From: a virus
Taxonomy: Duplodnaviria > Heunggongvirae > Uroviricota > Caudoviricetes
Virus record (IMG/VR): IMGVR_UViG_2563366990_000012
Location: 1-35,981 of that record
Reading direction: 5' to 3' (one strand)
Length of the DNA: 35,981 nt
Of this stretch, positions 1 to 35,981 are shown piece by piece (the first letter of the stretch is position 1; each line of letters starts with the position of its first letter). The position numbers and the translations under genes are program-made. The notes under the pieces were generated by a model. It saw only the letters and a list, made by a program, of their open reading frames with translations, had not been told where the DNA came from and searched no databases.

Positions 1-1362
1 ATGTTTAAACCGGAACTCCTTTCCCCGGCGGGAACGCTGAAAAATATGCGTTACGCTTTCGCTTATGGCGCAGATGCTGTTTATGCGGGCCAGCCGCGTT
101 ACTCCCTGCGTGTGCGCAACAACGAATTCAACCACGAAAATCTTCAGCTCGGCATCAATGAAGCCCACGCGCTGGGGAAAAAGTTTTATGTCGTGGTCAA
201 CATTGCACCGCACAACGCCAAGCTGAAAACCTTTATCCGTGACCTGAAACCGGTGGTGGAAATGGGGCCGGATGCGCTGATTATGTCCGATCCAGGGCTG
301 ATTATGCTGGTGCGTGAGCACTTCCCTGAAATGCCGATCCATCTCTCGGTACAGGCTAACGCCGTGAACTGGGCGACGGTGAAATTCTGGCAGCAAATGG
401 GCCTGACCCGCGTGATCCTCTCTCGCGAGCTGTCGCTGGAAGAGATTGAAGAGATCCGCAATCAGGTGCCGGATATGGAGATCGAGATCTTCGTTCACGG
501 TGCGCTGTGCATGGCCTACTCCGGTCGCTGCCTGCTCTCTGGCTATATCAACAAGCGCGACCCGAACCAGGGTACCTGCACCAACGCCTGCCGCTGGGAG
601 TACAACGTCCAGGAAGGGAAAGAAGATGACGTTGGCAACATCGTACACAAGTACGAGCCAATTCCGGTGCAAAATGTTGAGCCGACGCTGGGTATCGGCG
701 CGCCAACCGACAAAGTGTTTATGATCGAAGAAGCCCAGCGTCCGGGCGAGTATATGACCACGTTTGAAGATGAGCACGGCACTTACATCATGAACTCGAA
801 AGATCTGCGCGCCATCGCCCATGTTGAACGCCTGACCAAAATGGGCGTGCATTCGCTGAAAATCGAAGGCCGTACCAAATCTTTCTACTATTGCGCACGC
901 ACCGCGCAGGTTTACCGTAAAGCTATCGATGACGCCGCTGCGGGCAAACCGTTCGATACCAGCCTGCTGGAAACGCTGGAAGGTCTGGCGCATCGTGGCT
1001 ATACCGAAGGTTTCCTGCGTCGTCATACCCACGACGATTATCAGAACTACGAATACGGTTATTCGGTTTCTGACCGCCAGCAGTTTGTTGGTGAGTTTAC
1101 CGGTGAGCGCAAGGGGGAGCTCGCGGCGGTAGCGGTGAAAAATAAATTCTCCGTTGGCGACAGCCTTGAGCTAATGACGCCGCAAGGCAACATTAACTTT
1201 ACCCTTGAGCATATGGAAAACGCCAAAGGTGAAGCAATGCCGGTCGCACCAGGCGATGGTTATACTGTGTGGCTCCCGGTGCCGCAGGATCTCGAACTGA
1301 ATTACGCGCTGCTGATGCGTAATTTCTCCGGTGAAACCACGCGTAACCCCCACGGTAAGTGA
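1..1362 (+). CDS. yegQ: U32-family peptidase-like protein YegQ (23S rRNA 5-hydroxycytidine synthase RlhA), 453 aa
   Basis: Full-length ORF starting MFKPELLSPAGTLKNMRYAFAYGADAV, recognised as E. coli YegQ; the known chromosomal neighbour of cyaR and the P2 locI site. Confidence 0.9.
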   Translation: MFKPELLSPAGTLKNMRYAFAYGADAVYAGQPRYSLRVRNNEFNHENLQLGINEAHALGKKFYVVVNIAPHNAKLKTFIRDLKPVVEMGPDALIMSDPGLIMLVREHFPEMPIHLSVQANAVNWATVKFWQQMGLTRVILSRELSLEEIEEIRNQVPDMEIEIFVHGALCMAYSGRCLLSGYINKRDPNQGTCTNACRWEYNVQEGKEDDVGNIVHKYEPIPVQNVEPTLGIGAPTDKVFMIEEAQRPGEYMTTFEDEHGTYIMNSKDLRAIAHVERLTKMGVHSLKIEGRTKSFYYCARTAQVYRKAIDDAAAGKPFDTSLLETLEGLAHRGYTEGFLRRHTHDDYQNYEYGYSVSDRQQFVGEFTGERKGELAAVAVKNKFSVGDSLELMTPQGNINFTLEHMENAKGEAMPVAPGDGYTVWLPVPQDLELNYALLMRNFSGETTRNPHGK

Positions 1363-1446
1363 TTAATTTCGATTATTTTTCCCGGATGAAAAATTCTTAG
1401 AAACCGATCACATACAGCTGCATTTATTAAGGTTATCATCCGTTTC

Positions 1447-1533
1447 GCTGAAAAACATAACCCATAAAATGCTAGCTGTACCAGGAACCACCTCCTTAGC
1501 CTGTGTAATCTCCCTTACACGGGCTTATTTTTT
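1447..1533 (+). ncRNA. cyaR: CyaR (RyeE) CRP-dependent Hfq-binding sRNA
   Basis: Sequence GCTGAAAAACATAACCCATAAAATGCTAGCTGTACCAGGAACCACCTCCTTAGCC followed by terminator hairpin and T-run matches my recollection of CyaR; lies in the yegQ-ogr intergenic region as in E. coli K-12. The 3' end overlaps the prophage att core. Confidence 0.8.
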
Positions 1534-8357: not shown

Positions 8358-8649
8358 CGCCTGTCATGATTTGTACTCACTTATTTCCCGACTGACAATT
8401 TACATAGCCAAAACGCTATCAAATCTGACAGTCTGCTTTGAGCGAGAAGCGGAAGTTCAATGTGATAAAGCTCAGGAACATTGTCGTTGATGATGATAAA
8501 GAGGATCAGACTAACTTAGCACTTCTCATCACGTTGATAAGGCATAGAAACTGCAAACACTATTGTGAATATAATTTCACTATAGTAAATTAAAGTAAGC
8601 TCTTTTCGTTCGTTATTACATAAAATAAAGTTCTCTCTAAGGTTGAAAA

Positions 8650-9093
8650 ATGTTAGATATCAGAATGTCACGACCATCTGAAGCATCAGAGATCATACAA
8701 ATCTGGAAGAGTTCAGTGGATGCTACCCACGACTTTCTTACAGGTCATGACCGACAAGAAATCGAAAAAGAAGTTATCGGCTTTTTCTCAGAAACTCCTG
8801 TATGGGTTGCAACAAATCAGGATGACCAACCGCTAGGATTTATGTTTTTGCATGAGGGGCATCTGGAGGCACTTTTTGTAGCAGGCTCTGCTCGCGGACT
8901 TGGCGTCGGAAAACGTTTGATATCTCATGCACTGGCGCTGCATCCAGAGCTAAGCGTTGATGTAAATGAACAAAACCAGCAGGCTGTAGGGTTTTATCAG
9001 CATATGGGTTTTCAGGTATCAGGGCGTTCCGATCTGGATAATCAGGGAAGGCCATACCCCTTGTTGCATCTGAGAATGGCCAATAACATGTAA
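8650..9093 (+). CDS. GNAT-family N-acetyltransferase, 147 aa (cargo at the Z/fun position)
   Basis: Acetyl-CoA binding motif region ...EALFVAGSARGLGVGKRLISHAL... and QQAVGFYQHMGF typical of GNAT folds; about 40% GC versus about 55% for the backbone. Confidence 0.75.
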   Translation: MLDIRMSRPSEASEIIQIWKSSVDATHDFLTGHDRQEIEKEVIGFFSETPVWVATNQDDQPLGFMFLHEGHLEALFVAGSARGLGVGKRLISHALALHPELSVDVNEQNQQAVGFYQHMGFQVSGRSDLDNQGRPYPLLHLRMANNM

Positions 9094-9113
9094 CCAATGT
9101 GGCAGAGAAGATA

Positions 9114-9698
9114 TCATTGATTTTTTTGGCTAAAAGCCACGATGTAAGAACAGCTCTGCTCACTATCTGGATTGCTCATTTGGTACTCGCTTGCAAAGGT
9201 AAGGGCAAGACAGTCACCGGCACGTAAATGATGGGTCTGATTTTTGACTCGAAAATCAAGGCTGCCACTCATCATCCAAAGCGTTTGCCCGGAAAGATGC
9301 TCATTTGCGGAGGCGGGTATCGTCAGCTCACCCATTGCAGGGATTTCAACTTTGATCAGTTCCGGGCATGCCCCCGCAGGAGACAAAGACCAACGGGTGA
9401 TGCCTGATTGCTCATCCGTCCAGTGCTGTTGCTGATGAGCAAAACGAACCAGGGAATTCTGATGTTGCTCAAGCTCTGCAAAGAGTTTAGATAGCGTTAC
9501 ATTCATGGCGTTGGCCAGGCGGCTAAGGATAGTTGCACTAGGGCTGGAGATGCCTCGTTCAATCTTACTAATCATGGCCTGACTGACGCCCGATCGTTGA
9601 GCAAGCTCTGTTACAGTCAAATTGCGAGCCTTCCTGTGTTTAAGCAATAAACGTGCAATATCGCTATCTACTATCTGATTTTTAAATTTTTTATCCAT
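9114..9698 (-). CDS. XRE-family HTH transcriptional regulator with C-terminal cupin domain, 194 aa
   Basis: N-terminal HTH LLKHRKARNLTVTELAQRSGVSQAMISKIERG plus a C-terminal cupin-like segment. Start trimmed to MDKKFKNQ, which is preceded by GAGAGGG. Confidence 0.75.
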   Translation of the reverse strand: MDKKFKNQIVDSDIARLLLKHRKARNLTVTELAQRSGVSQAMISKIERGISSPSATILSRLANAMNVTLSKLFAELEQHQNSLVRFAHQQQHWTDEQSGITRWSLSPAGACPELIKVEIPAMGELTIPASANEHLSGQTLWMMSGSLDFRVKNQTHHLRAGDCLALTFASEYQMSNPDSEQSCSYIVAFSQKNQ

Positions 9699-9933
9699 TT
9701 CCGCCCTCTCTTTCACCAACCTGATTATGCCATTACATAAATTGGCCTGAAATAAATGATTTTGTAAGTCTGTAAATTCACTACTCCTAAGCGCGGCACT
9801 TCGTTTATACGCACCTATAACCTTAAAATATGAGTTGGTAAGCTTAACGTCCGCTTTTGGCACATAGCGGACTGTCAGATTAGGCTTTACTCTGTGCTAT
9901 AGATATGTAAGCTCACACCAGAGATCATACAAC

Positions 9934-10461
9934 TTATTGCGGCATTTCCGGCCATTCGGGATTTGCAGGATCCACACGACTGACCAGAACGCTGTAGCGT
10001 TCCCATGCTTCCAGTCGGCTGCGTTCCTCATCCGTCGCCATATTCAGCCTGACAGCGCGTTCCAGCGGCAAAATCACGGATTCAGCTTCGGAAAGTAAAG
10101 CTGCCTTTTGTGATTCTGCCTGTTGCTCCTGTTCATCTGCCGTATAAATCCGCTTAATCACGGCACCATCCTTAAACATCCATTTACCTGAGTCATCAGC
10201 ACGTCGGTTGGAGGTAATATCAGGAACCTCGACAACGCTGAAACCTTCAGGGTTAAGCGTTGAAGCATCTCTGGTGATGCCGACAATTATATTATTCTCG
10301 TCGTAAACAATCTTTATCGTGTCTTCCTGAAAATTACTTACTTCCTCATACCAGTTTTTTCCCTCTTCGGACCATAACCAGATAACATCAAAATTTTTTG
10401 TCAGTTGATATTGGGCAACAGTTTTTGGATTACCCGCAGTAATATTTTTTAAATGCTGCAT
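9934..10461 (-). CDS. G: Tail fiber assembly chaperone gpG, 175 aa
   Basis: Immediately downstream of H; length equals P2 G. Confidence 0.85.
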
Positions 10462-10464
10462 AAA

Positions 10465-12510
10465 TTACACCTGTGCGACGTTATACCATGTGCCATTGAT
10501 GTATTTTTGTATTGGCCTGAATACTGCGGGGTCATCACCATCGACTTCACCGACAATACCAAGCCCGGTAATTACGTGCCCTGCTTTCTCATACATCACC
10601 CCTTTCTGCATGGTCTGGACAACACGTGTGCCAAGTCTGATATCTCTCACATAGCGGGAATCAAAGTTACCGTAATCCGAGGGATTAACACGCCCCGTAA
10701 TATTTATGGTCTTATTACTTTGAATGCTTCCGGAAACAAAGCGCATAACATGGACGTTATTAGCATAAACATCCAGATTACCATCGCCATTTTGTTTAAA
10801 TCCGGTGTCGTTATCACCAAGAACAATAGAGTTCCCACCCAACGCGTTATTCGTGCCAAGTGCCAGCCCGCCATCAATCCTGGCACCATTACCAACAGAC
10901 ACAACTCCTGTTCTTAAGTTGATGCCGAATGGCCTTAATGACCCAATATCTCCATTTTCACCCTCATTTTCTCGTGTAGGAATGATATACAGGTTTTCTT
11001 CAGAACGGCGAAAAATAGCACCAAAAGATGAATTAAATATCCTCAGCGCATTGACTGTAGATATTTTTACTTCACTACTGAAAAGGGCTTTAACAAGAAC
11101 ATACAGAGCATCCCATTTAAGATTCATCAGGTCTTTTGTTGTGGTGCTCTGGCGACTTCTCCATTTGAAATATTCATTGCCGTTGTCACCTGTTTCAAAC
11201 CACATATATGAATCAGTATCGCTGTCGGCATCATTTTTAAATCCAATCTTTGCCCAGTCAGTATTTCGAATCCAGGCAAGGATTGAGTCGTTTTCAAAAG
11301 TAAGCCCGCCGGACAAGGTATCGCCATTTTTTTGCACGGCGTTCCCGGCTCGGTTTACCGTTTCCTGTAAACCGAGATATTCGATAACGGCGGCAACGGT
11401 CGATTTAGCCAGAATATCCCGCCCGACTTTTGTCAGGGTCGCCAGGCTGGCAACATCATTCCCCGTAAAATACGGAAACCTGTCTGCCGCAGTAGCAAGC
11501 CCCGCCAGCGCCGTCAAAGTGGCATCTTTCGGTTGCTTACCCGCAAGCGCATTAGTCATGGTGGTAGCAAAATTCGGGTCATTGCCCAGCGCCGCCGCCA
11601 GCTCGTTCAGCGTATTCAGTGCGTCAGGCGACGAGTCTACAAGGGCGGCAATCGCGGCCATAACGAAAGCCGTGTTTGCGATCTGAGTATTATTCGTTCC
11701 CTGTCGCGCAGTTGGCGTCGTTGGCGTTCCGGTCAGTGCAGGGCTGTTTAATGGCGCTTTCTTGTTCGTTTCATCCATTACCGTCTTAACGGCTTTTGGT
11801 GTTGCGGCGAGCGTTTCAGACATGCTGTTGGTCGCACTACTTAGCTGGACAAGACCTTTTCGCGCTGTGGTAGCGTCCTGTGCGGTATATTTCCCGTTAG
11901 CAAGGTCATACGCGGCCTTTACCGCTTTCGGCGTTGCGGCCAGTGTTTCAGACGTGCTGTTGGTCGCACTGCTTAACTGAGTAAAACCTTTGGCGGTCAG
12001 CGAGGCGTCCGGGTGACGTCGTGACTGTTCGTGCTCTGCAATTTTGTCATCAACGTAATCCTGTGTCGCCATCACCGTTGTGGTGTCAATGGTCAGCTCC
12101 ACCGAGGCCACACTGCTGACGATGATGACCATGCGACAGGTCTGCGAACGCCCTGAGCCTTCGGCAAGAGCTGGCTTATAACTTTCGGCCATGTTCGCCA
12201 CGGCAATTAACGTTCCCGCATCATCGTACAGGCCAAGCTCACGCATCCAGAAACCGCCCACCTCCGGCGGAATAACCAGCTCTGCGATAATATAATTACT
12301 GTTTCGTTTGTCCTGGCTGATTTTGTTCAGCGTATGTCGCCAGACTTCGTGGATAAGCCCGGTCTGTCCGGCATCCGGGACAGGCAATTTACCACCGCCA
12401 TCCCCGACGGCCATCGTGGTAATGTTGACCTTCCGCCCTCCCGGTGCGGTTGCCGCTGCCAGCTTTGCTGCACCGGCAGTGGTGATAACGGTTTTGAATT
12501 TTGTGCTCAT
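10465..12510 (-). CDS. H: Tail fiber protein gpH, 681 aa
   Basis: N-terminus MSTKFKTVITTAGAAKLAAATAPGG, internal phage fiber repeats (SETLAATPKAVK twice), C-terminal receptor-binding region. Confidence 0.9.
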   Translation of the reverse strand: MSTKFKTVITTAGAAKLAAATAPGGRKVNITTMAVGDGGGKLPVPDAGQTGLIHEVWRHTLNKISQDKRNSNYIIAELVIPPEVGGFWMRELGLYDDAGTLIAVANMAESYKPALAEGSGRSQTCRMVIIVSSVASVELTIDTTTVMATQDYVDDKIAEHEQSRRHPDASLTAKGFTQLSSATNSTSETLAATPKAVKAAYDLANGKYTAQDATTARKGLVQLSSATNSMSETLAATPKAVKTVMDETNKKAPLNSPALTGTPTTPTARQGTNNTQIANTAFVMAAIAALVDSSPDALNTLNELAAALGNDPNFATTMTNALAGKQPKDATLTALAGLATAADRFPYFTGNDVASLATLTKVGRDILAKSTVAAVIEYLGLQETVNRAGNAVQKNGDTLSGGLTFENDSILAWIRNTDWAKIGFKNDADSDTDSYMWFETGDNGNEYFKWRSRQSTTTKDLMNLKWDALYVLVKALFSSEVKISTVNALRIFNSSFGAIFRRSEENLYIIPTRENEGENGDIGSLRPFGINLRTGVVSVGNGARIDGGLALGTNNALGGNSIVLGDNDTGFKQNGDGNLDVYANNVHVMRFVSGSIQSNKTINITGRVNPSDYGNFDSRYVRDIRLGTRVVQTMQKGVMYEKAGHVITGLGIVGEVDGDDPAVFRPIQKYINGTWYNVAQV
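11780..11985. repeat. Imperfect ~138-bp tandem duplication inside H encoding the repeated fiber motif
   Basis: DNA segments GCGGCGAGCGTTTCAGACATGCTGTTGGTCGCACT and GCGGCCAGTGTTTCAGACGTGCTGTTGGTCGCACT about 138 bp apart; the protein shows a duplicated LSSATNS(T/M)SETLAATPKAVK motif. Confidence 0.7.
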
Positions 12511-13956: not shown

Positions 13957-14304
13957 TCAACTCACAGGGATGGTTAACGAAAGTGGCTGGCCGGTGTCGT
14001 TGTGCTGGCCGGTTAACGTGACCGTCATTCGCCCGTCAAAACTGCGCGCCGTGGTGACAGATGACAGCGTGACGCGGGGTTCCCATTTCAGCACCGCCAT
14101 GTAACAGGCGACCTTAATCTGCAACTCAAGCGCCGGGGTCTGCGGCTGGTCAATCATTGATGCCAGCAACGAGCCGTAATCACGACGCATCACCCGTGAG
14201 CCGACCGGTGTACGCAGGATATCGCCGATACTCTGGCTGATATGCTCAAGGTCAGTGACAGTCAGGCCATTACTGCGATTCATTCCGAGATAACGAGCTG
14301 TCAT
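13957..14304 (-). CDS. W: Baseplate protein gpW, 115 aa
   Basis: Position and length match P2 W. Confidence 0.88.
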   Translation of the reverse strand: MTARYLGMNRSNGLTVTDLEHISQSIGDILRTPVGSRVMRRDYGSLLASMIDQPQTPALELQIKVACYMAVLKWEPRVTLSSVTTARSFDGRMTVTLTGQHNDTGQPLSLTIPVS

Positions 14305-14936
14305 AAAGGACTCCCGGTTGTGCCGCCGCTGTCGCCGGGGTGTTTGTGGGTATGCAGTACCTTACCGTTTGATGAGAGTTCACCGCCGGTGTGTTCAATG
14401 TTGCCACGCATCGTCCCGCCCTTCTGTACTTCCAGCGTGCTAGTAATCAGCCTGTTGGTGCAGACCACCTCCGGTGTGTCCAGGGTGATGCGAGTTGACG
14501 CTTTCACCATGACCACCGGCACCGTGGCAGTAACAGAATCAGAAGCCGTCACGCTGGCCGTTTTAATTCCGCTTACCGTGAGTGCACTGGTTTCGGGTTC
14601 ATACTCAATCACCGCCCCGTCAGGGAAACGGATATGCAGGGCATCCGCCGACGCAGACGGCGCGGGGTTATCGCCGGAATAAATCCCCGGCAGAACGAAC
14701 GCCGTGTCAAGTTCACCACCCACGGCCAGAATCAGCACCTGTTCCCCCACGGAAGGTGCCCACCATGTGCGCGAACGCCCGGCGCGATGGGTCAGCCACT
14801 GAAGCCAGTCGGTGCACATGCCGCCGGTCTGCACACGGCAGCGACCGGCGTTAAGGTCGGTTTCGACGACAAGGCCGGTACGAATCATGTTGCGCAGTGC
14901 GCGCGCGAGTTCCTGAATATTTGCGAGAGTGTTCAT
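14301..14936 (-). CDS. V: Baseplate spike protein gpV, 211 aa
   Basis: MNTLANIQELARAL...; track ORF trimmed by six codons to the P2 V length. Confidence 0.88.
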   Translation of the reverse strand: MNTLANIQELARALRNMIRTGLVVETDLNAGRCRVQTGGMCTDWLQWLTHRAGRSRTWWAPSVGEQVLILAVGGELDTAFVLPGIYSGDNPAPSASADALHIRFPDGAVIEYEPETSALTVSGIKTASVTASDSVTATVPVVMVKASTRITLDTPEVVCTNRLITSTLEVQKGGTMRGNIEHTGGELSSNGKVLHTHKHPGDSGGTTGSPL

Positions 14937-15019
14937 GCGTGTGAGATTGCACAATATATAAAAGTTATGCTATCTGGATTCATTTGTAGAACGACCATAC
15001 AACATTCGAGGAGAGCGTA

Positions 15020-15805
15020 ATGTTCAGTGATAATGTGATTAATGCGTGGTGGTTTATCTCTTTGTATCTATTTTTATTAATAGCATTAACATTTGTTACC
15101 TTTGGTAAAAGTAATCTTATGAGGTTTATTGCACATCATTTCAATCTTGAGTATTCAGACAGAAAGTTAAAAATGCTCGACAAAAAATGGCGCGACATTC
15201 AACTATTTAAAACAATTAACGGAATCAATGTATCAGGCATCGAAGATGTGAGAATGATACAGCAGGGGCTGATTGATGGAAAACTAAAAACATCGTATTT
15301 TTTCCTTACTCGCTTCTGGGGTGACATAACAAAACCACCACACATAATTAAAACAATAATTGTAATTCTGGCCAGTATTATTTATATTCTCTTCGCATGT
15401 TATATACACAACAAACAATCCGCTATAGTAAGAGATGCCATAGGCATACCATATAAAAATATGATGTACTATGTTTATAGTGACAAAGTTCTTTTATCCT
15501 TCAAAAATAAAACAGTTGAACTTAATAAAACTTATAGCCTTGCCGATTGCAAGACCCTGCAAAACGTATTTATAAAAGACACACTTCCTGAAATCGCCTG
15601 CAATAAGCTCTTACAGCTAAACGAGGAGGACTCCGAATGGTTAAGTCAGGAGATTAAAGATAATAACAGCCACAAAAAAGCATTATTAATACTATCCCTC
15701 GTCTATTTCATTTCAGGCCTGCTTATATTCCTGTCATATACAAAATTCCTTTACGCCAATAAGAAGGTTTTAGAATACAAAGCATCAAATAAAAACCACT
15801 CATAA
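15020..15805 (+). CDS. AT-rich predicted membrane protein, 261 aa, at the P2 orf30 position between V and S
   Basis: AGGAGA 5 nt upstream of ATG; three hydrophobic segments (AWWFISLYLFLLIALTFVTF, IIKTIIVILASIIYILFACYI, ALLILSLVYFISGLLIFLSY); about 28-30% GC; opposite strand to flanking late genes. Confidence 0.7.
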   Translation: MFSDNVINAWWFISLYLFLLIALTFVTFGKSNLMRFIAHHFNLEYSDRKLKMLDKKWRDIQLFKTINGINVSGIEDVRMIQQGLIDGKLKTSYFFLTRFWGDITKPPHIIKTIIVILASIIYILFACYIHNKQSAIVRDAIGIPYKNMMYYVYSDKVLLSFKNKTVELNKTYSLADCKTLQNVFIKDTLPEIACNKLLQLNEEDSEWLSQEIKDNNSHKKALLILSLVYFISGLLIFLSYTKFLYANKKVLEYKASNKNHS

Positions 15806-15811
15806 ACCTCT

Positions 15812-15846
15812 AAACATTGAGCGACCAGCACGGCCGCTCAATGTTT
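15812..15846. terminator. Bidirectional hairpin terminator between the membrane-protein cargo gene and S
   Basis: Perfect 12-bp inverted repeat AAACATTGAGCG ... CGCTCAATGTTT with an 11-nt loop, followed by AATT. Confidence 0.6.
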
Positions 15847-15876
15847 AATTGCGCATCAGCCTCTGCCTGGATAAAA

Positions 15877-16329
15877 CTAACGCTCAAGGTGAGCCAGGAT
15901 AGTCTCTTCAATCATCTGCACATCCTCACCGGTAAAGCCGAGCAGGGGACGCGCCGGATAATCAATTTTCTTACCGTCTTTCCGGTTTTCTTCCGACAGG
16001 CCGAACTGATGCACGCTGGCGATTTTTGGTGACTTCCCGCCGTAAAATTCCATTGATGCCTGTTCCGGGCTGGCGCGGATATGCAAAAAGCGACTGGTGA
16101 TAAGTTTCGCAAACATTTTTCGCTTAACACGACCGGTCTTTTTTCTGGCGCTCTGCTGCTGGCGTGGCGCGTAGGGTGTGCCGTCCGGGGCTTTCTGTGC
16201 CATCACCCGACGCTGCTGACTCTGACGCAGACGTTTCGCCAGTTCGGTACTCAGTCGTCGACGCCCTGACGGTGACAGCGACTCAATCAGTCCGGTCAGC
16301 CGGTCTTCAAAACGCTTAAACTCATTCAT
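15877..16329 (-). CDS. S: Tail completion protein gpS, 150 aa
   Basis: Position and length match P2 S. Confidence 0.88.
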   Translation of the reverse strand: MNEFKRFEDRLTGLIESLSPSGRRRLSTELAKRLRQSQQRRVMAQKAPDGTPYAPRQQQSARKKTGRVKRKMFAKLITSRFLHIRASPEQASMEFYGGKSPKIASVHQFGLSEENRKDGKKIDYPARPLLGFTGEDVQMIEETILAHLER

Positions 16330-25245: not shown

Positions 25246-25392
25246 CGCCCGCTTCATGCAGGGCTTTAAATGCAGTGCAGCAGTAATGGTTAGAATGCGC
25301 CAGCACTGATGTTAGATACCAGAACTGGCATTTAAAAATGAATGCAAATAAATGCACCAAACTAATTACTTACTGACAAAAAATAAGTAAAA

Positions 25393-26277
25393 TCAGGCGC
25401 AAGTTGGCATTGAGACCCCTTTCAGGGTATTAGGAATAATTATTTCAGGAGAAAAAATCATCACTTCCTCTCCAGATTTTTTGAGATGCGCTGTATATTG
25501 CAATGAATACTCAACTTGCGGAAATCCATTATAAATATCTTTAATTTCCTTAGCGTTATCATAAGAAACAAGCCAATTTGGGAAATTAATTTCTGTGAGT
25601 TTCTTCATAACCAATACATGGTCATCATGCTCATAAAAATTCCTGTAAAGCCCTTGCCCTTTAATATAGTAAGGAGGATCCAAATACAAAAGAATTTTAT
25701 TTTTATCCACCTTTCCCATATTATCCATAAAATTCAAGGCATCAAGAAAATCCAAAGCATCCAGATTAGTTACTACTATTCTTTGATTATAATTTGCTAT
25801 CTTCTCAATTCTTGAAATTAAATCCGCCCTGTTAAAGCGAACATCCATTTTCCATTTTCCATTTTGTGATTTCCCGCCTATAACCCCCGCCTTGAGAATA
25901 CCTGAACGATTTGTTCTATTTAAGAAAAACGCAGCAAAGCCAACCTCAAGCTTAGTAAACTCAGAAGGATTCGAAATAACATAGCGATGAAAAGACCATT
26001 CATCCATATCTATCTTTGCTCGGCTAATAAGTCGGCAAAGCTCATCAGTATCACTAACAACAGATGACCAAAAAGAATAAACAGCAAAATCTGCATCATT
26101 TATATAGATTTTACGGACATACTCTTCCAATAATAATTCTAAAGCCACCCCTGCACCACCAGCGTAAGGTTCTGCATATGCTCCATCATTCAACGAGTTT
26201 TTTTCAATAACATCTTTTAAAAAGTAAGATAACTTACCTTTCCCGCCGGGGTATCTTAATGGAGTATAAAATTTCAT
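25393..26277 (-). CDS. Dam-family (alpha-class, D12-like) N6-adenine DNA methyltransferase, 294 aa
   Basis: N-terminal PLRYPGGK and SAM-binding EPYAGGAGV motifs, catalytic DPPY (LLYLDPPYYIKG) near the C-terminus; GAGG 6 nt upstream of ATG; about 33% GC. Confidence 0.85.
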   Translation of the reverse strand: MKFYTPLRYPGGKGKLSYFLKDVIEKNSLNDGAYAEPYAGGAGVALELLLEEYVRKIYINDADFAVYSFWSSVVSDTDELCRLISRAKIDMDEWSFHRYVISNPSEFTKLEVGFAAFFLNRTNRSGILKAGVIGGKSQNGKWKMDVRFNRADLISRIEKIANYNQRIVVTNLDALDFLDALNFMDNMGKVDKNKILLYLDPPYYIKGQGLYRNFYEHDDHVLVMKKLTEINFPNWLVSYDNAKEIKDIYNGFPQVEYSLQYTAHLKKSGEEVMIFSPEIIIPNTLKGVSMPTCA

Positions 26278-26314
26278 AAATCCCTCTCATTCCTGATTTT
26301 GTAGTTTATCAGTT

Positions 26315-26332
26315 TCTGGACATCCATGTCCA
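26315..26332. promoter_or_regulatory. Perfect palindrome CTGGACAT-CC-ATGTCCAG between the ParB-like gene and the methyltransferase gene
   Basis: 8-bp arms and 2-bp centre in the 70-bp intergenic spacer; candidate operator or attenuator hairpin. Confidence 0.5.
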
Positions 26333-26346
26333 GATGTAGACAAATC

Positions 26347-27852
26347 TCACTCACTCCAAATAAGGCTTAATAACAACTCAAAGTTATCCCACTCAGTGTT
26401 GACAGCCTCTTTTGAGGGAATTAAGTGTGGGTTATGTACATACTGCTGCAATGAACCATCATGTTTAGTTATTTGGCTCGAGAAAGTTATTACAGCCGTA
26501 CATTGACTCCCCGTCATCTTTTTATTTTCCCGAAGGAAATTAGCACACATTTTAACCTTATCATGAAGCCCTGGAGTTCTATGTGGTTCCTTAAATTGTA
26601 ACTTGTTTTCTTCAACAAAAGTGCTTACAGAGAGATCTATAAATATTCTCAACAATATTGAGATAGCATTAGGGGTGTTATCAAATGTCAGATGCGACTT
26701 AAGCTCATTAAATATTCTAGAGCATTTCTTATGCCCTCTAAAATTAAATTTCACATAAGATGGCACCAACACATTACGATCTACTTTAGGAGGAGTTTTT
26801 CCCTTGTTTTTATTCTGTTCCGTACCCGAAACTTTAGATTTACTCTCTTCTGTGCCTACATGTCTAGAATAATCATCTTCCTGTTTATCCACACCTGTAT
26901 TCTTTAAGGCATCACCTTCTGAAAGACCTACTTTCTTTACACTCACAGATGCATCATTTTTGTCAATAGAATCATGTTTTTTCTCTGTAAGAAAAGATTT
27001 AGGCTCCAGTAAACTCCACGGCTTATCTAAAAGAGATTCTGAAGGTTTTATTTTTTGTTCAATAATAAATGTAACCCTGTCATCTTGGCTACGAATCCTA
27101 TTAACAGTAAAACAAGCCTTACCTTTATCATCCTCTTCAATCATTACATCTAAAATATTTTTTAATTGTGCACAAAAACGTTCATAAGGCTGATATGAGT
27201 ATAGAACTCCATTAATGCTTTTTAAATTAAAATAATCCCTCACCTTTAAATCACCAAAAAGACGCGTGATGTTTGTGATTTTTAAAAGTCTTTTTTTAGC
27301 AATTATCTCTTTATATAAATCAGTATTGAACTCTATAAATGTAAGTATTTGATTACCAAATGACTGCTTACCCATCCTAGCCAGATGTCGTGCTTTTTCT
27401 GTTGCAGTCCATTCAACTCTTCCAACTCCAGCATTTTGACCAGTATGCTTTAAATTGACCCAATGCTCATATTCATCATCGTCAAAAAGAACGCAGTTAT
27501 CTATAACATTAATATCTTTAAGCTGAGTAATCTTAAGTTTTTCAAAAGCTTTCCGTGCTTTTTCTGTTGGTGCAAGTCTAGGAGAGTGTAAAAGTTTAAG
27601 GGCTGTAACTCGACGATTACCTTCAGCAACGACGAAAAACCCAGATTCCTCTTCACTAGGATAAACTAATATGTTTTCAGACGGATCTAAACCTTTCGAA
27701 GCAATATCTTTAGCCAAGCGATAAATGCGGTCGTACTGCAAGTCAAGCATCTTGGCAATAGCATCACGCTGATTTTCTGCTGACGTCGGGAAACGAGGGT
27801 TATCAACATCCAAAAGTAACTTATTGATATTCATTGATTTTAGTTGATTCAT
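26347..27852 (-). CDS. ParB/Sulfiredoxin-like domain protein with a large uncharacterised C-terminal region, ~501 aa
   Basis: N-terminal ParB-like motif (LLDVDNPRFP ... FFVVAEGNRRVTALKLL), Lys/Glu-rich low-complexity linker, about 170-aa C-terminal domain. Start placed at MNQLKS, 7 nt after AGAGGA; the ORF could start up to 27921. Confidence 0.7.
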   Translation of the reverse strand: MNQLKSMNINKLLLDVDNPRFPTSAENQRDAIAKMLDLQYDRIYRLAKDIASKGLDPSENILVYPSEEESGFFVVAEGNRRVTALKLLHSPRLAPTEKARKAFEKLKITQLKDINVIDNCVLFDDDEYEHWVNLKHTGQNAGVGRVEWTATEKARHLARMGKQSFGNQILTFIEFNTDLYKEIIAKKRLLKITNITRLFGDLKVRDYFNLKSINGVLYSYQPYERFCAQLKNILDVMIEEDDKGKACFTVNRIRSQDDRVTFIIEQKIKPSESLLDKPWSLLEPKSFLTEKKHDSIDKNDASVSVKKVGLSEGDALKNTGVDKQEDDYSRHVGTEESKSKVSGTEQNKNKGKTPPKVDRNVLVPSYVKFNFRGHKKCSRIFNELKSHLTFDNTPNAISILLRIFIDLSVSTFVEENKLQFKEPHRTPGLHDKVKMCANFLRENKKMTGSQCTAVITFSSQITKHDGSLQQYVHNPHLIPSKEAVNTEWDNFELLLSLIWSE

Positions 27853-27873
27853 CAACATATCCTCTGTTGAATC

Positions 27874-27906
27874 TTTATGATAAAAATTAATTATTTTTAT
27901 CATAAA
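27874..27906. promoter_or_regulatory. 33-bp inverted repeat (13-bp perfect arms TTTATGATAAAAA / TTTTTATCATAAA) in the 5' leader of the ParB-like gene
   Basis: Read directly from the sequence; centred about 35 bp upstream of the preferred start codon. Confidence 0.55.
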
Positions 27907-28208
27907 TGATAGCGTAAACATAGTCTTATGAACGACATCAGCCCTGAAGCTTCAAAACTATCATTTACGTTTGCGAGGCACCATCTATCACATTGATTTA
28001 TAATAAGTATCTTTATCTTCACTGCATTGCTCTCAAAAAATCACATAGATGGAAATTCCCCGTTGACACACTCCCAAGTGATGCAGATACATTTCAAGTG
28101 CTTCATACACATGATAACGGCTATCCCCCTAAATTCTGTGCGTTTCTTTTCCCTCCAGCACAAGGTTGAAATATCTTGCGTGCAGCTTTACTTTGTGAAT
28201 CTTTGTCA

Positions 28209-32261: not shown

Positions 32262-32523
32262 CGAGACCTAACCACATCAACCAGCCGTCACGAATCTCTT
32301 TAGGACGGCTTTCATAAGCCAGTTTTAGTCCGTTATTCCATGCCGGAAGGTATACCCAATATTCACCAGCACGCCCCGATACTGACTGAGGGTCAGTAAT
32401 CTCAATAACTGGTAATTTCCCTTTCTCAATCATACCCCTTACAGCTCTTGGAGTTTTACCAATGAGTTTTGCAAACTCCTGATAAGGCACGGCATCAGTC
32501 ACGCTTACAAGCTGTCTATTCAT
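32248..32523 (-). CDS. cox: Cox excisionase / Pc repressor, 91 aa
   Basis: PYQEFAKLIGK...GKLPVI...GRAGEYWVYLPAWNNGLKLAYESRPKEIRDGWLMWLGLGEPR closely matches P2 Cox as I recall it. Confidence 0.9.
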   Translation of the reverse strand: MNRQLVSVTDAVPYQEFAKLIGKTPRAVRGMIEKGKLPVIEITDPQSVSGRAGEYWVYLPAWNNGLKLAYESRPKEIRDGWLMWLGLGEPR

Positions 32524-32644
32524 CTGCTACGATTCTCCCTTAGTGCTTCTAATGGCTCCTAATGGCTAATTATTGCCTAAAAGGATAACTCCAGAAGCAC
32601 AACATTTCACACTATCAGCAAGAAATTACGCAATCGGAGTAATT
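32524..32644. promoter_or_regulatory. Pe/Pc divergent promoter-operator switch region between cox and C
   Basis: Contains the direct repeat CTAATGGCT at 32549..32557 and 32559..32567, consistent with P2 C repressor binding direct-repeat operators. Confidence 0.55.
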
Positions 32645-32944
32645 ATGTCAATAGACGTTTCGGAGAAGTTGAAGCTAATCCGTGAATCTGAAAGGTTAAA
32701 CCGTAAAGAATTCAGTGAATTAACTGGTGTAGCCTACAGCTCACTTTCGAGCTATGAGAGCCGGTCAAAAAACGCTGGAGTTGAAGCCATAATGAAGGTC
32801 TTACAACATCCTAGATTTACTAAATATACTTTGTGGTTCATGACTGATCAGGTAGCTCCAGAAGCCGGGCAAATTGCGCCCGCTCTCGCACACTTTGGGC
32901 AAAACGAAACAACGTCGCCCCACTCCGGTCAAAAGACTGGTTAA
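32645..32944 (+). CDS. C: Immunity repressor C, 99 aa
   Basis: C-terminal half FTKYTLWFMTDQVAPEAGQIAPALAHFGQNETTSPHSGQKTG matches P2 C; start trimmed from the TTG-initiated track ORF to the in-frame ATG at 32645. Confidence 0.88.
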   Translation: MSIDVSEKLKLIRESERLNRKEFSELTGVAYSSLSSYESRSKNAGVEAIMKVLQHPRFTKYTLWFMTDQVAPEAGQIAPALAHFGQNETTSPHSGQKTG

Positions 32945-34180: not shown

Positions 34181-34349
34181 TACATAAACCATAGAGACGG
34201 ATTGATCCCAGGTCACCGTCTTCCATTGACCACATCGATAGAATCTCCCTTCATAGCACGATGCCTTTCACTTATTGGCATCGTGCTCGCACAGGTTCCG
34301 GTTACGCACAGCCAGAACGCGCATGTTTGATGCTTACCAAAAAATATTC

Positions 34350-34667
34350 TCACTCTCCACATTTGAATGTCAGACGAGCGACGCCATGTAATCCTGCACC
34401 TTCTGTCTTCAGGTCAACTATCTGCATTTTTTTGCCCTGAGTAACACAGAAATGAACTGCATCATTTTTTACTATATTTTCTGCACCAGATATTCTACCC
34501 CTGGCTAAAGAAGCTTCGGCTTCGGTGTAGTATTGGTTATCGAGTTTACGCTGAATATTACTTTTATATGCAAGACCAAATTTACCGATACTTGTCTCAT
34601 CATTATGTACAGCACACCCAGACATAAGAAAAACACTAATTAATGATATAGCAGCTATCTTTTTCAT
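34350..34667 (-). CDS. yegR: Small exported protein YegR, 105 aa
   Basis: MKKIAAISLISVFLMSGCAV signal/lipobox-like N-terminus; host neighbour of yegS. Confidence 0.8.
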   Translation of the reverse strand: MKKIAAISLISVFLMSGCAVHNDETSIGKFGLAYKSNIQRKLDNQYYTEAEASLARGRISGAENIVKNDAVHFCVTQGKKMQIVDLKTEGAGLHGVARLTFKCGE

Positions 34668-35081
34668 CTCACCTTCCCCCATTAAATACCAACGACACGC
34701 TCTGGTGTTTAAATATAATAATGGCATGATTATTATAATTGAATAGGATTATAATAAATGTTCTGTACAACATTTCCTACATAAGTAGGAATTACATACA
34801 CGGATGCCCTTCCAGGTAACCCCATGGGGGGGTTAATATATTTTTAATAGTATATTGAAGATGCCACTGTTTAGTTGAATATTAGGTATATGTTCTTTTT
34901 TGAAATTTACCGGTGGCTACCGTTAATATTCGCTGTTCCCATTGCAAGCTCCTGGTGGTAACCACTGAATCCTCCATACTTGAACTGACTTTTTATCCTC
35001 CGACTTTCATCCTGTTCTGACTCCACCTTTTCTTTTCTGCTCTACACTATCTACAGTCCAATCATAAAGGCACATACGATC

Positions 35082-35981
35082 ATGGCAGAATTTCCCGCCA
35101 GCTTACTGATTCTTAATGGCAAAAGTACTGACAATCTACCCTTGCGCGAAGCAATTATGCTGTTGCGTGAGGAAGGAATGACGATCCATGTGCGGGTCAC
35201 CTGGGAGAAAGGCGATGCCGCACGATATGTAGAGGAGGCACGGAAGTTGGGCGTCGCAACGGTGATTGCCGGTAGTGGCGATGGCACCATTAATGAAGTT
35301 TCTACGGCGTTGATTCAGTGTGAGGGGGATGACATACCCGCGCTGGGAATTTTACCATTAGGAACCGCCAATGATTTTGCCACCAGTGTAGGGATTCCTG
35401 AGGCACTGGATAAGGCGCTGAAACTGGCAATTGCCGGTAACGCCATTGCGATAGATATGGCGCAGGTCAATAAACAAACCTGTTTTATTAATATGGCGAC
35501 AGGCGGGTTTGGGACGCGTATTACCACAGAAACGCCGGAAAAATTAAAAGCCGCGCTGGGTGGCGTCTCTTACATCATTCATGGCTTAATGCGCATGGAC
35601 ACTCTGCAACCGGACCGTTGTGAAATCCGCGGTGAAAACTTTCACTGGCAAGGTGACGCCCTGGTCATTGGTATTGGTAACGGGCGTCAGGCCGGTGGCG
35701 GTCAACAATTGTGCCCGAACGCGTTAATTAACGATGGCTTGCTGCAACTGCGCATTTTTACCGGCGATGAAATTATTCCGACTCTCGTATCAACCTTAAA
35801 ATCTGACGAAGATAACCCGAATATTATCGAAGGAGCTTCGTCGTGGTTTGATATACAAGCCCCACACGAAATCACTTTTAATCTTGATGGCGAACCGTTG
35901 AGTGGGCAAAACTTCCATATTGAAATACTTCCGGCGGCGTTGCGTTGTCGATTACCACCAGATTGTCCATTGTTGCGTTAA
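35082..35981 (+). CDS. yegS: Lipid kinase YegS (DAG-kinase-like fold), 299 aa
   Basis: [15 protein letters not shown]... with GGDGT-type motif ([11 protein letters not shown]); full length. Confidence 0.9.

What the first reader, a model, noticed from the sequence alone, without database searches (positions are those of the whole stretch)
14937..15876. Very AT-rich membrane-protein moron between V and S (P2 orf30 position)
A 261-aa protein with three predicted TM helices, a good ribosome-binding site, roughly 28-30% GC and opposite orientation to the surrounding late genes, followed by a perfect 12-bp-stem bidirectional hairpin. The composition marks it as horizontally acquired; small membrane proteins in prophage late regions are often superinfection-exclusion or abortive-infection factors.
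Basis: partly seen in the sequence, partly recalled or inferred. Interest (0 to 1): 0.55.

Follow-up and report, generated by a model that had tools for sequence, protein, structure and literature searches.

The report
Phage P2 orf30 membrane-protein gene
This is the long-known but still function-less accessory gene orf30 of phage P2, an AT-rich three-helix inner-membrane protein that sits in the same slot of P2-like prophages across enterobacteria, evolves much faster than its neighbours, and is most plausibly (not proven) a prophage protein that excludes other phages.

Summary
A 261-codon ORF (15020-15805, +) with 33% GC lies between tail genes V and S (54-59% GC), on the opposite strand. 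It has a GAGGAG ribosome-binding site, three hydrophobic helices and a 13-bp hairpin downstream. GC is 33%, not 28-30%.

The gene is not new. It is phage P2 orf30 (85% amino-acid identity to AAD03281.1, annotated "nonessential"; full-length match to phrog_2407), and the window is a complete P2-like prophage. About 29% of E. coli genomes with a close P2-type V/S region carry it; most of the rest have an empty slot.

What I add:
- An exhaustive profile search found 42 clusters, 17-34% identical.
- In 10 of 11 contexts examined the homologue sits next to V, divergent from it, always at 30-35% GC.
- Its divergence is uncorrelated with that of V.
- Predicted topology is N-out/C-in, with a conserved cytoplasmic loop and a periplasmic loop carrying exactly two cysteines in all 25 members.
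- dN/dS is about 0.3 in the loops and about 1.2 in TM1 and TM3.

There is no match to any known defence, exclusion, lysis or virion family, and no significant fold match.

The exclusion or abortive-infection reading is plausible by analogy with P2 fun(Z), tin and old, but untested (about 0.4).

The parts
15020..15805 (+). orf30 coding sequence (261 aa plus TAA stop), the ortholog of phage P2 Orf30
   Evidence: ORF listed. It is 85% aa identical to P2 Orf30 (AAD03281.1) and 95% to the Peduovirus P2 record OU784549. It matches phrog_2407 over 1-261 of 261 positions, E 1.6e-141. GC is 33%. dN/dS is 0.3-0.6 across 8 alleles, all intact.
15008..15013 (+). Shine-Dalgarno sequence GAGGAG, 6 nt before the ATG
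   Evidence: Read from the sequence. Comparable purine-rich sites precede the homologues in all other loci.
14937..15019 (.). 83-bp V-orf30 intergenic region. It holds the late promoter PV (- strand) and whatever promoter drives orf30 (+ strand).
   Evidence: The P2 record annotates the activator (Ogr) binding site for PV at positions that map to window 14978-15005 (offset taken from the alignment). The window has TGT-N11-ACA there. The only sigma-70-like candidate for orf30 is weak: TTGCAC (14947-14952), 18 nt, TATCTG (14971-14976). I read it by eye, it falls below the scan thresholds, and it overlaps PV.
15041..15103 (+). TM helix 1 (aa 8-28)
   Evidence: Kyte-Doolittle peak 2.13. Helix in the AF2 model. 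dN/dS 1.22 for codons 1-28.
15104..15337 (+). Loop 1 (aa 29-106), predicted cytoplasmic. It is the most conserved part of the family, with the motif D-x-Q-L-F-K-x-x-N-G-I-N-V-x4-D-[AV]...G...F...F/W-G.
   Evidence: 12 of its 78 columns are >=70% conserved; G68 and G87 are invariant. dN/dS 0.34. The K+R bias supports a cytoplasmic side.
15338..15409 (+). TM helix 2 (aa 107-130)
   Evidence: Kyte-Doolittle peak 2.63. No column is conserved at >=70% in the family. dN/dS 0.70.
15410..15676 (+). Loop 2 (aa 131-219), predicted periplasmic: a four-stranded beta-sheet plus helices, with a conserved Cys pair (C177 at 15548-15550, C194 at 15599-15601).
   Evidence: All 25 family members have exactly two Cys in this loop. 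C194 is invariant and C177 is 96% conserved. AF2 secondary structure. dN/dS 0.27.
15677..15739 (+). TM helix 3 (aa 220-240), followed by a lysine-rich cytoplasmic tail (aa 241-261, 15740-15802)
   Evidence: Kyte-Doolittle peak 2.51. dN/dS 1.19 for TM3 and 0.32 for the tail. The tail has 5 K/R against 1 D/E.
15811..15847 (.). Bidirectional hairpin (13-bp stem) between the convergent stops of orf30 and S. It is a likely terminator for both the O operon and orf30.
   Evidence: Folding: -21.2 and -28.0 kcal/mol, z -6.0 and -4.6. Annotated in P2 as the putative rho-independent terminator of the O operon. The U-tracts are short, and the simple terminator scan did not call it.
14301..14936 (-). Flank: gene V (baseplate spike), divergent from orf30
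   Evidence: 97% aa identity to P2 gpV. P2 annotation.
15877..16329 (-). Flank: gene S (tail completion), convergent with orf30
   Evidence: 98% aa identity to P2 gpS. P2 annotation.

Best explanation
Identity (near certain). The feature is the phage P2 accessory gene orf30 in a complete P2-like prophage. It is a self-contained cassette of ribosome-binding site, ORF and bidirectional terminator. The cassette sits between the end of the O late operon (S) and the Ogr-dependent promoter of the V operon, and is read against the late genes.

Product (inferred). The product is an inner-membrane protein with three TM helices. The N-terminus is predicted to lie in the periplasm. A conserved loop of about 78 aa faces the cytoplasm. 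A loop of about 89 aa with a beta-sheet faces the periplasm and is probably held by one disulfide (C177-C194). The lysine-rich tail is cytoplasmic.

Function (inferred; the confidence figure refers to this part). It is a non-essential 'lysogenic-conversion' gene that the prophage carries to act at the cytoplasmic membrane against other phages. It would either block genome entry (superinfection exclusion) or abort infection. This parallels the other reverse-oriented, AT-rich, non-essential P2 genes fun(Z), tin and old.

Not shown. Neither the target nor the timing of expression (lysogen or late) is established.
For: Identity.
-.

A functional protein rather than junk.
- Eight alleles are intact and indel-free, with dN/dS 0.3-0.6 overall and 0.27-0.34 in the loops.
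- The exhaustive profile search gives 42 clusters at 50% identity, about 25 of them full length, with invariant G68, G87, C194 and I212.
- The AF2 model built from the 25-sequence alignment is confident (pLDDT 81, pTM 0.71).

Topology.
- Three hydropathy peaks.
- The K+R bias favours N-out/C-in in 23 of 25 members, and every member has exactly two Cys in loop 2.

Accessory, arms-race-like behaviour.
- The gene is present in 460 of 1583 E. coli genomes with a close P2-type V/S region; most of the others have an empty slot.
- Homologues hold the same V-proximal slot in 10 of 11 contexts, yet are only 21-39% identical where V is 55-83%.
- Their divergence is uncorrelated with that of V (Spearman -0.06; 0.10 and -0.18 for the two halves of V), so the cassette is shuffled relative to the backbone.
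- One locus carries tandem paralogues (L010).
- Intact copies survive in degraded prophage remnants of E. coli B and Serratia rubidaea.

Analogy within P2.
- fun(Z) has the same layout: reverse-oriented, between a late-operon terminator and the next Ogr-dependent promoter. P2's record says the cloned gene blocks T5, and that tin and old block T-even phages and lambda.
- The old/tin slot of this same prophage carries a recognised defence system, PD-Lambda-5.
Against: - No phenotype has been published. I found only 'nonessential' and 'unknown'. Surveys of P2 hotspots do not treat this slot.
- PADLOC gives no hit. Pfam gives no hit to any exclusion, Abi, holin or immunity family, either for this protein or for 25 relatives.
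- No fold match is significant.
- Expression in lysogens is unproven. The P2-type allele has no sigma-70 promoter above scan thresholds, and its upstream region overlaps PV and the Ogr site.
- A 33% GC tract is a likely target of H-NS silencing in E. coli (general knowledge).
- Classical work obtained double P2 lysogens by superinfection (my recollection). If so, orf30 does not fully exclude P2 itself.
- dN/dS of about 1.2 in TM1 and TM3 can be mere tolerance of hydrophobic swaps in an anchor, so it is not proof of diversifying selection.
Confidence: 0.4

Rival explanations
1. Lytic-cycle helper. orf30 would be switched on late, together with V, through the shared Ogr site, in the way P2's divergent PP and PO promoters share one activator region. 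Its product would act in the producing cell's membrane, for example by tuning lysis or envelope state, or by preventing superinfection or re-adsorption during the late phase.
For: - In 10 of 11 contexts the family member is glued to the PV side of the slot. Extra cargo, where present, goes between it and S.
- In L002 and L023 a TGT-N12-ACA site is centred 55.5 nt from the V start.
- In L002 and L007 a -10-like AATAAT ends 17-18 nt before the homologue's start codon. That places it about 53 nt beyond the site centre in L002, roughly mirror-symmetric to PV (my arithmetic).
- P2's PP and PO share one activator region.
- The lysis genes lie just upstream in the O operon.
Against: - In P2 and in this window the ATG lies only 18 nt beyond the Ogr half-site. 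A mirror-image late start would therefore fall inside the ORF (my arithmetic).
- The gene is non-essential and absent from most close relatives, including viable phages.
- There is no similarity to holins, antiholins or spanins.
- Intact copies are retained in remnants that can no longer grow lytically.
Confidence: 0.2
2. Host-directed lysogenic conversion unrelated to phage defence. The membrane protein would change envelope physiology, for example through stress tolerance, transport, surface structure, or immunity to colicins or other membrane-damaging toxins. The lysogen would then be fitter.
For: - It is a three-TM inner-membrane protein whose most conserved part is a cytoplasmic loop, which suggests a conserved cellular partner.
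- It is retained in domesticated remnants.
- It is remotely related to DUF6216, a general family of uncharacterised membrane proteins. One slot homologue passes the Pfam threshold (28.9 against 27.3 bits), and 10 of 25 relatives hit it weakly.
- One subfamily (P0017) lies on short contigs with no phage genes in view.
Against: - 10 of 11 contexts are P2-like prophages.
- Extreme divergence and shuffling are more typical of conflict genes than of physiology genes.
- There is no match to any transporter, enzyme or known immunity family.
Confidence: 0.15
3. Functionless or merely structural cargo. The AT-rich insert would be tolerated because the site is neutral, perhaps serving only as a spacer or terminator (or an H-NS-bound insulator) between two late operons. 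The ORF itself would be silent.
For: - The gene is dispensable and the slot is usually empty.
- Promoter evidence is weak in the P2-type allele.
- AT-rich DNA is commonly silenced by H-NS (general knowledge).
- The cassette does supply the O-operon terminator in P2.
Against: - Purifying selection acts on the loops (dN/dS about 0.3) and all eight alleles are intact.
- The protein family has invariant residues and a conserved Cys pair at 17-34% identity.
- A strong Shine-Dalgarno site precedes every member.
- Empty-site phages have their own terminator hairpin, so the ORF is not needed for termination.
Confidence: 0.08
4. Conserved virion or assembly component, for example a membrane-associated assembly factor for the baseplate spike encoded next door.
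For: Its position directly next to V is constant across the family.
Against: - It is annotated non-essential in P2.
- It is absent from viable phages with near-identical V and S: fiAA91-ss, P37, pro483 and PhiR44_1.
- It is on the opposite strand to the late operons.
- Its divergence shows no covariation with that of V.
Confidence: 0.02

Closest known systems
Phage P2 Orf30 (AAD03281.1, AF063097 9439-10224; PHROG family phrog_2407)
   Same: It is the same gene. It is 261 aa and 85% identical (95% to another P2 isolate). It occupies the same position and orientation between S and V, with the same downstream hairpin and the same PV/Ogr region upstream.
   Different: It is only an allelic variant. 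Differences concentrate in the TM helices. No function is known for the reference gene either.
P2 fun(Z), tin and old (the proven lysogenic-conversion and exclusion genes of P2)
   Same: All are non-essential, AT-rich and read against the late or early genes. All sit at replaceable slots between operons. fun(Z) in particular lies between a late-operon terminator and the next Ogr-dependent promoter, exactly as orf30 does.
   Different: There is no sequence relationship. I know of no evidence that they are multi-pass membrane proteins (not checked here). Their exclusion phenotypes (T5, T-even phages, lambda) are recorded in the P2 annotation, whereas orf30 has none. In this window those two slots hold other cargo: a GNAT plus an HTH-cupin pair, and PD-Lambda-5.
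Inner-membrane superinfection-exclusion proteins of other phages (T4 Imm, HK97 gp15, P22 SieA) and membrane Abi components (lambda RexB, SieB). The comparison is from my own knowledge of these systems.
   Same: They are small, prophage- or phage-encoded inner-membrane proteins that are dispensable for growth, often AT-rich morons, and fast-evolving.
   Different: No homology was detected. Pfam, which as far as I recall holds models for several of these, gave nothing at E<=10 for this protein and nothing relevant for 25 relatives. PADLOC gave nothing. Orf30 is larger, and its most conserved part is cytoplasmic, whereas an entry blocker would be expected to work from the periplasmic or membrane side.
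Pfam DUF6216 (PF19723), an uncharacterised integral-membrane family
   Same: One slot homologue (P0024, Sodalis) matches full length above the gathering threshold (28.9 against 27.3 bits). 10 of 25 relatives give weak hits over the same architecture.
   Different: The window protein itself gives no hit. The family has no known function, and the one paper in the library that names it concerns an unrelated wastewater community, so the link adds no mechanism.
Immunity proteins of pore-forming colicins (3-4 TM helices). This is an analogy only, from my own knowledge.
   Same: They are small multi-pass inner-membrane proteins. Their specificity is reported to reside in the TM helices, which are the most variable parts here too.
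   Different: No sequence or fold match exists; a single relative hit the colicin-K immunity model at E 0.11, which is noise. There is no toxin partner in the locus.

Membership tests
P2 Orf30 / phrog_2407 | Full-length sequence match to the family profile and to the P2 reference protein | tested here: met
   phrog_2407 matched over 1-261 of 261 positions, E 1.6e-141. 85% identity over 100% of P2 Orf30. All 25 aligned relatives hit phrog_2407.
P2 Orf30 / phrog_2407 | Location between tail genes S and V of a P2-like genome, on the strand opposite to the late genes | tested here: met
   for the window. The same holds in 10 of 11 contexts of relatives.
Moron (autonomous accessory cassette in a prophage late region, as defined for HK97 and lambdoid phages; definition from my own knowledge) | Composition distinct from the flanks, and presence/absence polymorphism with clean boundaries | tested here: met
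   33% GC against 54-59%. Compared with the empty-site phage, the difference spans exactly V-start to S-stop. 460 of 1583 E. coli genomes with a P2-type V/S region are occupied.
Moron (autonomous accessory cassette in a prophage late region, as defined for HK97 and lambdoid phages; definition from my own knowledge) | Own terminator | tested here: met
   Strong hairpin at 15811-15847, annotated as a terminator in P2. Termination itself has not been measured.
Moron (autonomous accessory cassette in a prophage late region, as defined for HK97 and lambdoid phages; definition from my own knowledge) | Own promoter, active in the lysogen | tested here: inconclusive
   No sigma-70 site above threshold lies upstream in the window, only a weak candidate that I read by eye (TTGCAC, 18 nt, TATCTG). 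Better candidates exist in relatives, for example L002 with TTGATG, 17 nt, AATAAT. Expression cannot be tested with these tools.
Known anti-phage defence systems (PADLOC-DB v2) | Match to a model of any known or candidate defence protein | tested here: not met
   0 families at E<=10. As a positive control, the same library recognises PD-Lambda-5 A and B elsewhere in this prophage.
Known superinfection-exclusion, Abi membrane, holin or immunity protein families in Pfam | Sequence match to the family model | tested here: not met
   The only hits are sub-threshold noise: DUF6535 at 18.9 against 23.9 bits, and Comm. Scanning 25 relatives gave only DUF6216 repeatedly. NCBIfam gave nothing.
Pfam DUF6216 (PF19723) | Score above the gathering threshold | tested here: inconclusive
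   The window protein has no hit. Relative P0024 scores 28.9 against 27.3 bits over its full length, and 10 of 25 relatives hit weakly. This is consistent with remote homology, not with direct membership.
P2 virion or assembly proteins | Conserved in all functional members of the phage group | tested here: not met
   Absent from viable phages with 96-97% identical flanks. Annotated 'nonessential' in P2.
Any solved or predicted structural family | Significant fold match for a confident model | tested here: not met

The most novel reading that the evidence does not exclude
The Orf30 family would be a dedicated module that travels with the spike promoter of P2-like phages. It would protect the lysogen's inner membrane against puncture or genome delivery by contractile tails, whether from heteroimmune P2-like phages or from R-type tailocins. 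Specificity would lie in the hypervariable TM helices, as in immunity to pore-forming colicins. The conserved cytoplasmic loop and the disulfide-bonded periplasmic domain would form a constant scaffold. That would make the S-V slot a third P2 'defence' locus, overlooked until now and occupied by one diversifying family rather than by mixed cargo.
Probability: 0.12. Interest if true: 0.65.

Novelty: already known. Interest (0 to 1): 0.35.

Why it matters
P2 is a textbook phage, and orf30 is one of its very few genes that still has no function. P2-like prophages sit in about 29% of complete E. coli genomes (1583 of 5426), and orf30 itself in about 8.5% (460 of 5426). The two other variable slots of P2 have become rich sources of new anti-phage systems, but the S-V slot has not been examined in the surveys I could read.

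This analysis shows that the slot is held by one ancient, fast-diverging, consistently AT-rich membrane-protein family with a defined topology and conserved residues. That turns a 'hypothetical protein' into a directly testable candidate: which phages it excludes, when it is expressed, and what loop 1 binds.

If the gene turns out to have no defence role, it remains an ordinary, already catalogued accessory gene.

Tried and rejected
- **Family libraries.** Pfam, NCBIfam and PADLOC scans of the protein gave nothing usable.
- **PDB sequence search.** A profile search found one chance hit, E 0.25.
- **First structure model.** The AF2 model from five close alleles was too poor to use (pLDDT 54). 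The 25-sequence alignment fixed this.
- **Word-indexed protein searches.** They found only close alleles and a few relatives. The exhaustive HMMER search was what revealed the family.
- **Co-evolution with the spike.** I tested whether Orf30-like divergence tracks that of V, whole or by halves. There was no correlation, so I dropped co-evolution with the spike as support for the exclusion idea.
- **Other cargo in the slot.** I tested the L018 and L019 genes and the L009 DUF4062 protein against known defence families. PADLOC gave no hits; one has a weak HNH hint.
- **Rfam.** The region gave only a sub-threshold spurious miRNA hit on the hairpin.
- **Literature.** Searches for orf30, its accession numbers, DUF6216 and P2 hotspot surveys found no functional data. 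The key 2004 paper on P2 variable regions is not in the library.
Full report
**1. What is at the coordinates**

The window holds an ATG-initiated ORF at 15020-15805 on the + strand, 261 aa long.
- It lies between two genes on the - strand: V (14301-14936; the ATG used in P2 gives 211 aa) and S (15877-16329).
V is 59%, S is 54% and the whole window is 51%.
- GAGGAG sits 6 nt before the ATG.
- Hydropathy gives three clear peaks, which I place at about residues 8-28, 107-130 and 220-240.
- Downstream, 15811-15823 pairs with 15835-15847 in a 13-bp perfect stem. Folding energy is -21.2 kcal/mol on the + strand and -28.0 on the - strand (z -6.0 and -4.6). No shuffle out of 200 folds as well.
- At this base composition an open frame of 261 codons is very improbable by chance, about 2e-9 by my arithmetic.

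**2. What it is**

The gene is phage P2 orf30.
- The 2.1-kb stretch W'-V-ORF-S-R' matches P2-type phages end to end at 92-97% DNA identity.
- The protein is 85% identical to P2 Orf30 and 95% identical to that of another P2 isolate.
- P2's GenBank record lists "orf30, nonessential" in exactly this position and orientation. It also annotates the hairpin as the putative terminator of the O operon, and places the activator (Ogr) binding site of the PV promoter between orf30 and V.
- The protein matches PHROG family phrog_2407 (unknown function) over its full length.
- A blastn map of the window against P2 shows a complete P2-like prophage, from about 1507 to about 34238. Only the known replaceable slots differ.

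The literature I could read gives Orf30's function as "unknown". It names the orf30 site, with Z/fun and the TO region, as a place where P2-like phages carry foreign genes (PMC3091744; PMC6823313). Recent surveys of P2 defence hotspots deal with the old/tin and Z/fun slots and a few others, and do not mention orf30 (PMC9122126; the 2026 preprint; the 2024 iLund4u preprint).

**3. Distribution and boundaries**

- Among 5426 complete E. coli genomes, 1583 have a closely related V/S region. Of these, 460 carry orf30, always annotated "hypothetical protein" in the rows listed.
- Most of the rest have V and S adjacent, spanning 1227 bp.
- A few carry unrelated AT-rich genes in the slot. L018 holds a 247-aa protein. 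L019 holds a 246-aa protein with a weak HNH hint, the same size (741 bp) as the slot ORF described for phage R18C. Neither matches the Orf30 profile or PADLOC.
- In the empty-site phage fiAA91-ss the whole 66-bp V-S spacer differs from the window, and homology resumes exactly at the V start codon and at the S stop.

**4. A larger family in a fixed position**

The word-indexed search found only four clusters, all >=74% identical. The exhaustive profile search over 1.84 billion representatives found 42 clusters at E<=1e-3. About 25 are full length (239-271 aa) and 17-34% identical to the window protein.

I looked up the genomic context of eleven subfamily representatives.
- In ten of them the homologue lies immediately beside V, divergent from it, in a P2-like prophage or remnant.
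- These ten are E. coli (L002), an enterobacterial metagenome contig (L003), Yersinia (L007, L008), Gibbsiella (L009), a Logan contig with two tandem paralogues (L010), Pectobacterium (L021, L022), Sodalis (L023) and Serratia (L026, L027).
- Where the slot holds additional genes (a DUF4062 protein in L009; ORF6N and two small ORFs in L021), they lie between the Orf30-like gene and S.
- Only the P0017 subfamily sits on short contigs with no visible phage genes.

Every homologue is 30-35% GC, in backbones whose V gene is 54-63% GC. Pairwise identity among Orf30-like proteins is 21-39% where V is 55-83% and W is 53-75%. It is uncorrelated with V identity (Spearman -0.06 over 28 pairs; 0.10 and -0.18 for the two halves of V over 45 pairs).

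The gene is therefore not a one-off foreign insertion in P2. It is an old, slot-specific family that is either evolving extremely fast or being exchanged among P2-like phages independently of the backbone. Its AT-richness is a maintained property.

One member (P0024) passes the gathering threshold of Pfam DUF6216 over its full length, and 10 of 25 members hit that family weakly. This makes the family a divergent branch of an uncharacterised membrane-protein family. The only paper in the library that names DUF6216 concerns an unrelated wastewater community.

**5. The protein**

Alignment of 25 members and per-region statistics show where conservation lies.
- It is concentrated in loop 1 (residues 29-106). 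Twelve columns are >=70% conserved, including invariant G68 and G87 and near-invariant Q61 and D76.
- Loop 2 (131-219) is the next most conserved. C194 and I212 are invariant and C177 is 96% conserved.
- TM2 and TM3 have no conserved column.
- All 25 members have exactly two cysteines in loop 2.
- The K+R bias of the helix flanks favours N-out/C-in in 23 of 25 members.

The inferred topology has a periplasmic N-terminus, a cytoplasmic loop 1, a periplasmic loop 2 with one disulfide, and a cytoplasmic lysine-rich tail.

With the 25-sequence alignment AlphaFold2 gives a confident model (pLDDT 81, pTM 0.71). It has three long helices, a helical loop 1, and a four-stranded sheet plus two short helices in loop 2. 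The five-allele alignment had given pLDDT 54.

No fold search gave a significant match.
- Foldseek against PDB gives best E 0.05 with TM <=0.21.
- Foldseek against BFVD gives best E 0.055.
- AFDB was unavailable.

Sequence libraries gave nothing for defence, exclusion, lysis or immunity.

**6. Selection**

Eight alleles (the window, P2 and six other phages) are all 261 codons with no indels.
- Pairwise dN/dS is 0.26-0.61 for orf30. It is roughly 0.06-0.22 for V and 0.2 or less for S, at similar dS.
- By region, dN/dS is 0.34 in loop 1, 0.27 in loop 2 and 0.32 in the tail. It is 1.22 in the N-terminus plus TM1, 0.70 in TM2 and 1.19 in TM3.

The protein is under purifying selection in its soluble parts. 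Its TM helices change freely, which is the reverse of the usual pattern for membrane proteins. This may reflect anchor helices that tolerate any hydrophobic residue, or diversifying selection on contacts within the membrane. Eight sequences cannot separate the two.

**7. Regulation (inferred only)**

In the window, as in P2, only 83 bp separate the two start codons. The Ogr site of PV maps to 14978-15005, directly before the orf30 ribosome-binding site.
- No sigma-70 promoter passes the scan thresholds.
- A weak candidate that I read by eye (TTGCAC, 18 nt, TATCTG; 14947-14976) overlaps the PV core. If real, it would be occluded when PV is active.
- In relatives with longer spacers there are better candidates 17-26 nt before the start codon, for example L002 with TTGATG, 17 nt, AATAAT.
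- Their position is also roughly mirror-symmetric to PV about the Ogr site. A late, Ogr-assisted divergent promoter, like P2's PP/PO pair, therefore cannot be excluded for those alleles.
- In the P2-type allele a mirror-image start would fall inside the ORF.

Whether orf30 is expressed in lysogens, late, or both is open.

**8. Most likely function, and rivals**

I commit to the following, at about 0.4. Orf30 is a dispensable prophage membrane protein that acts against other phages at the inner membrane, either blocking entry or aborting infection.

The support is circumstantial.
- Its architecture parallels fun(Z), tin and old, which P2's record lists as exclusion genes.
- It shows presence/absence polymorphism, extreme divergence that is unlinked from the backbone, and tandem duplication in one locus.
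- Intact copies persist in degraded remnants of E. coli B and Serratia rubidaea.
- The neighbouring replaceable slot of this very prophage carries a recognised defence system.

Against it:
- no phenotype has been reported;
- there is no homology to any known system;
- expression is unproven;
- the most conserved part is cytoplasmic, which is not what a pure entry blocker would predict.

The rivals are a late lytic-cycle helper (0.2), host-directed conversion unrelated to phages (0.15), silent or merely structural cargo (0.08, disfavoured by purifying selection) and a virion or assembly component (0.02, refuted by viable empty-slot phages).

**9. Comparison with what is known, and novelty**

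As a sequence object this is already known: it is P2 orf30, catalogued in PHROGs, and its site is known to be variable. It cannot be filed under any known defence, exclusion, lysis or immunity family, because every testable membership criterion failed.

I did not find the following in the literature available to me:
- the breadth of the family;
- its strict V-proximal anchoring and constant AT-richness across Enterobacterales;
- the topology with a universal periplasmic Cys pair;
- the inverted conservation pattern, with loops constrained and TM helices free.

These points sharpen the question but do not answer it.

**10. Verdict**

Novelty: already known gene, function open. Interest is 0.35. 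The finding is ordinary in the sense that it rediscovers a textbook phage's orphan gene, but it is a well-defined, cheap-to-test candidate for a third accessory or defence locus in one of the commonest prophage families of E. coli.

Noticed in passing
window 25246-28127 (ORFs 26347-27921 - and 25393-26277 -): The old/tin slot of this prophage (GC 32-37%, no P2 homology) carries a two-gene PD-Lambda-5 defence system. Component A is 524 aa (E 6e-168). Component B is a 294-aa D12-class N6-adenine methyltransferase (E 1e-121).
   Followed up: partly
window 8458-9844 (ORFs 8650-9093 + and 9114-9863 -): The Z/fun slot holds two convergent genes instead of fun(Z): a 147-aa GNAT acetyltransferase and a 249-aa XRE-type HTH protein with a weak cupin C-terminus. 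This might be a toxin-antitoxin-like or regulatory pair. PADLOC gave no hit for the GNAT.
   Followed up: partly
window 1-1506, 34239-35981; 32502-32814; 9845-11085: The prophage ends map to about 1507 (P2 attP core side) and about 34238, with host DNA outside. The region between cox and int (the immunity repressor C region) has no blastn match to P2, which suggests a different immunity type. The distal tail-fibre (H/G) region is only 86% identical or unmatched.
   Followed up: no
L024 (E. coli B, NZ_CP117044.1 2110404-2111943); H113 (E. coli C); L027 (Serratia rubidaea): Degraded P2-like remnants keep V plus an intact orf30-like gene while neighbouring genes are truncated. In E. coli B, S is cut and abuts a portal fragment; the partial match in E. 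coli C (H113) looks similar but I did not fetch it. In S. rubidaea only ogr, V, the orf30-like gene and an S fragment remain. This is compatible with selection for retention, but three cases prove nothing.
   Followed up: partly
L010 6001-6771 and 6900-7658: Two tandem Orf30-family paralogues (P0028 and P0046; GC 30% and 33%) occupy the slot beside V on one Logan contig.
   Followed up: partly
L009 6877-8214; L021 5800-7440; L018 641-1384; L019 715-1455: Other cargo is seen in the S-V slot of P2-like prophages. The items are a 445-aa DUF4062 protein (GC 34%), an ORF6N-domain protein with two small ORFs, a 247-aa AT-rich protein with no family, and a 246-aa protein with a weak HNH_5 hit. The last is the same length (741 bp) as the slot ORF reported for phage R18C. 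None is recognised by PADLOC.
   Followed up: partly
L005 / L006 (metagenome contigs, 3.4-3.7 kb): The P0017 subfamily of Orf30-like proteins lies on short contigs next to a GNAT-type acetyltransferase, with no phage genes in view. It is the only context of the eleven that is not a V-S slot.
   Followed up: no
window 14936 / P2 10308: P2's record puts the PV transcription start at the same coordinate as the first base of the V start codon. The Ogr site is centred 55.5 nt from the V ATG in P2, L002 and L023. Taken literally, V would be translated from a leaderless mRNA, or else the annotated start or the +1 position is off.
   Followed up: no
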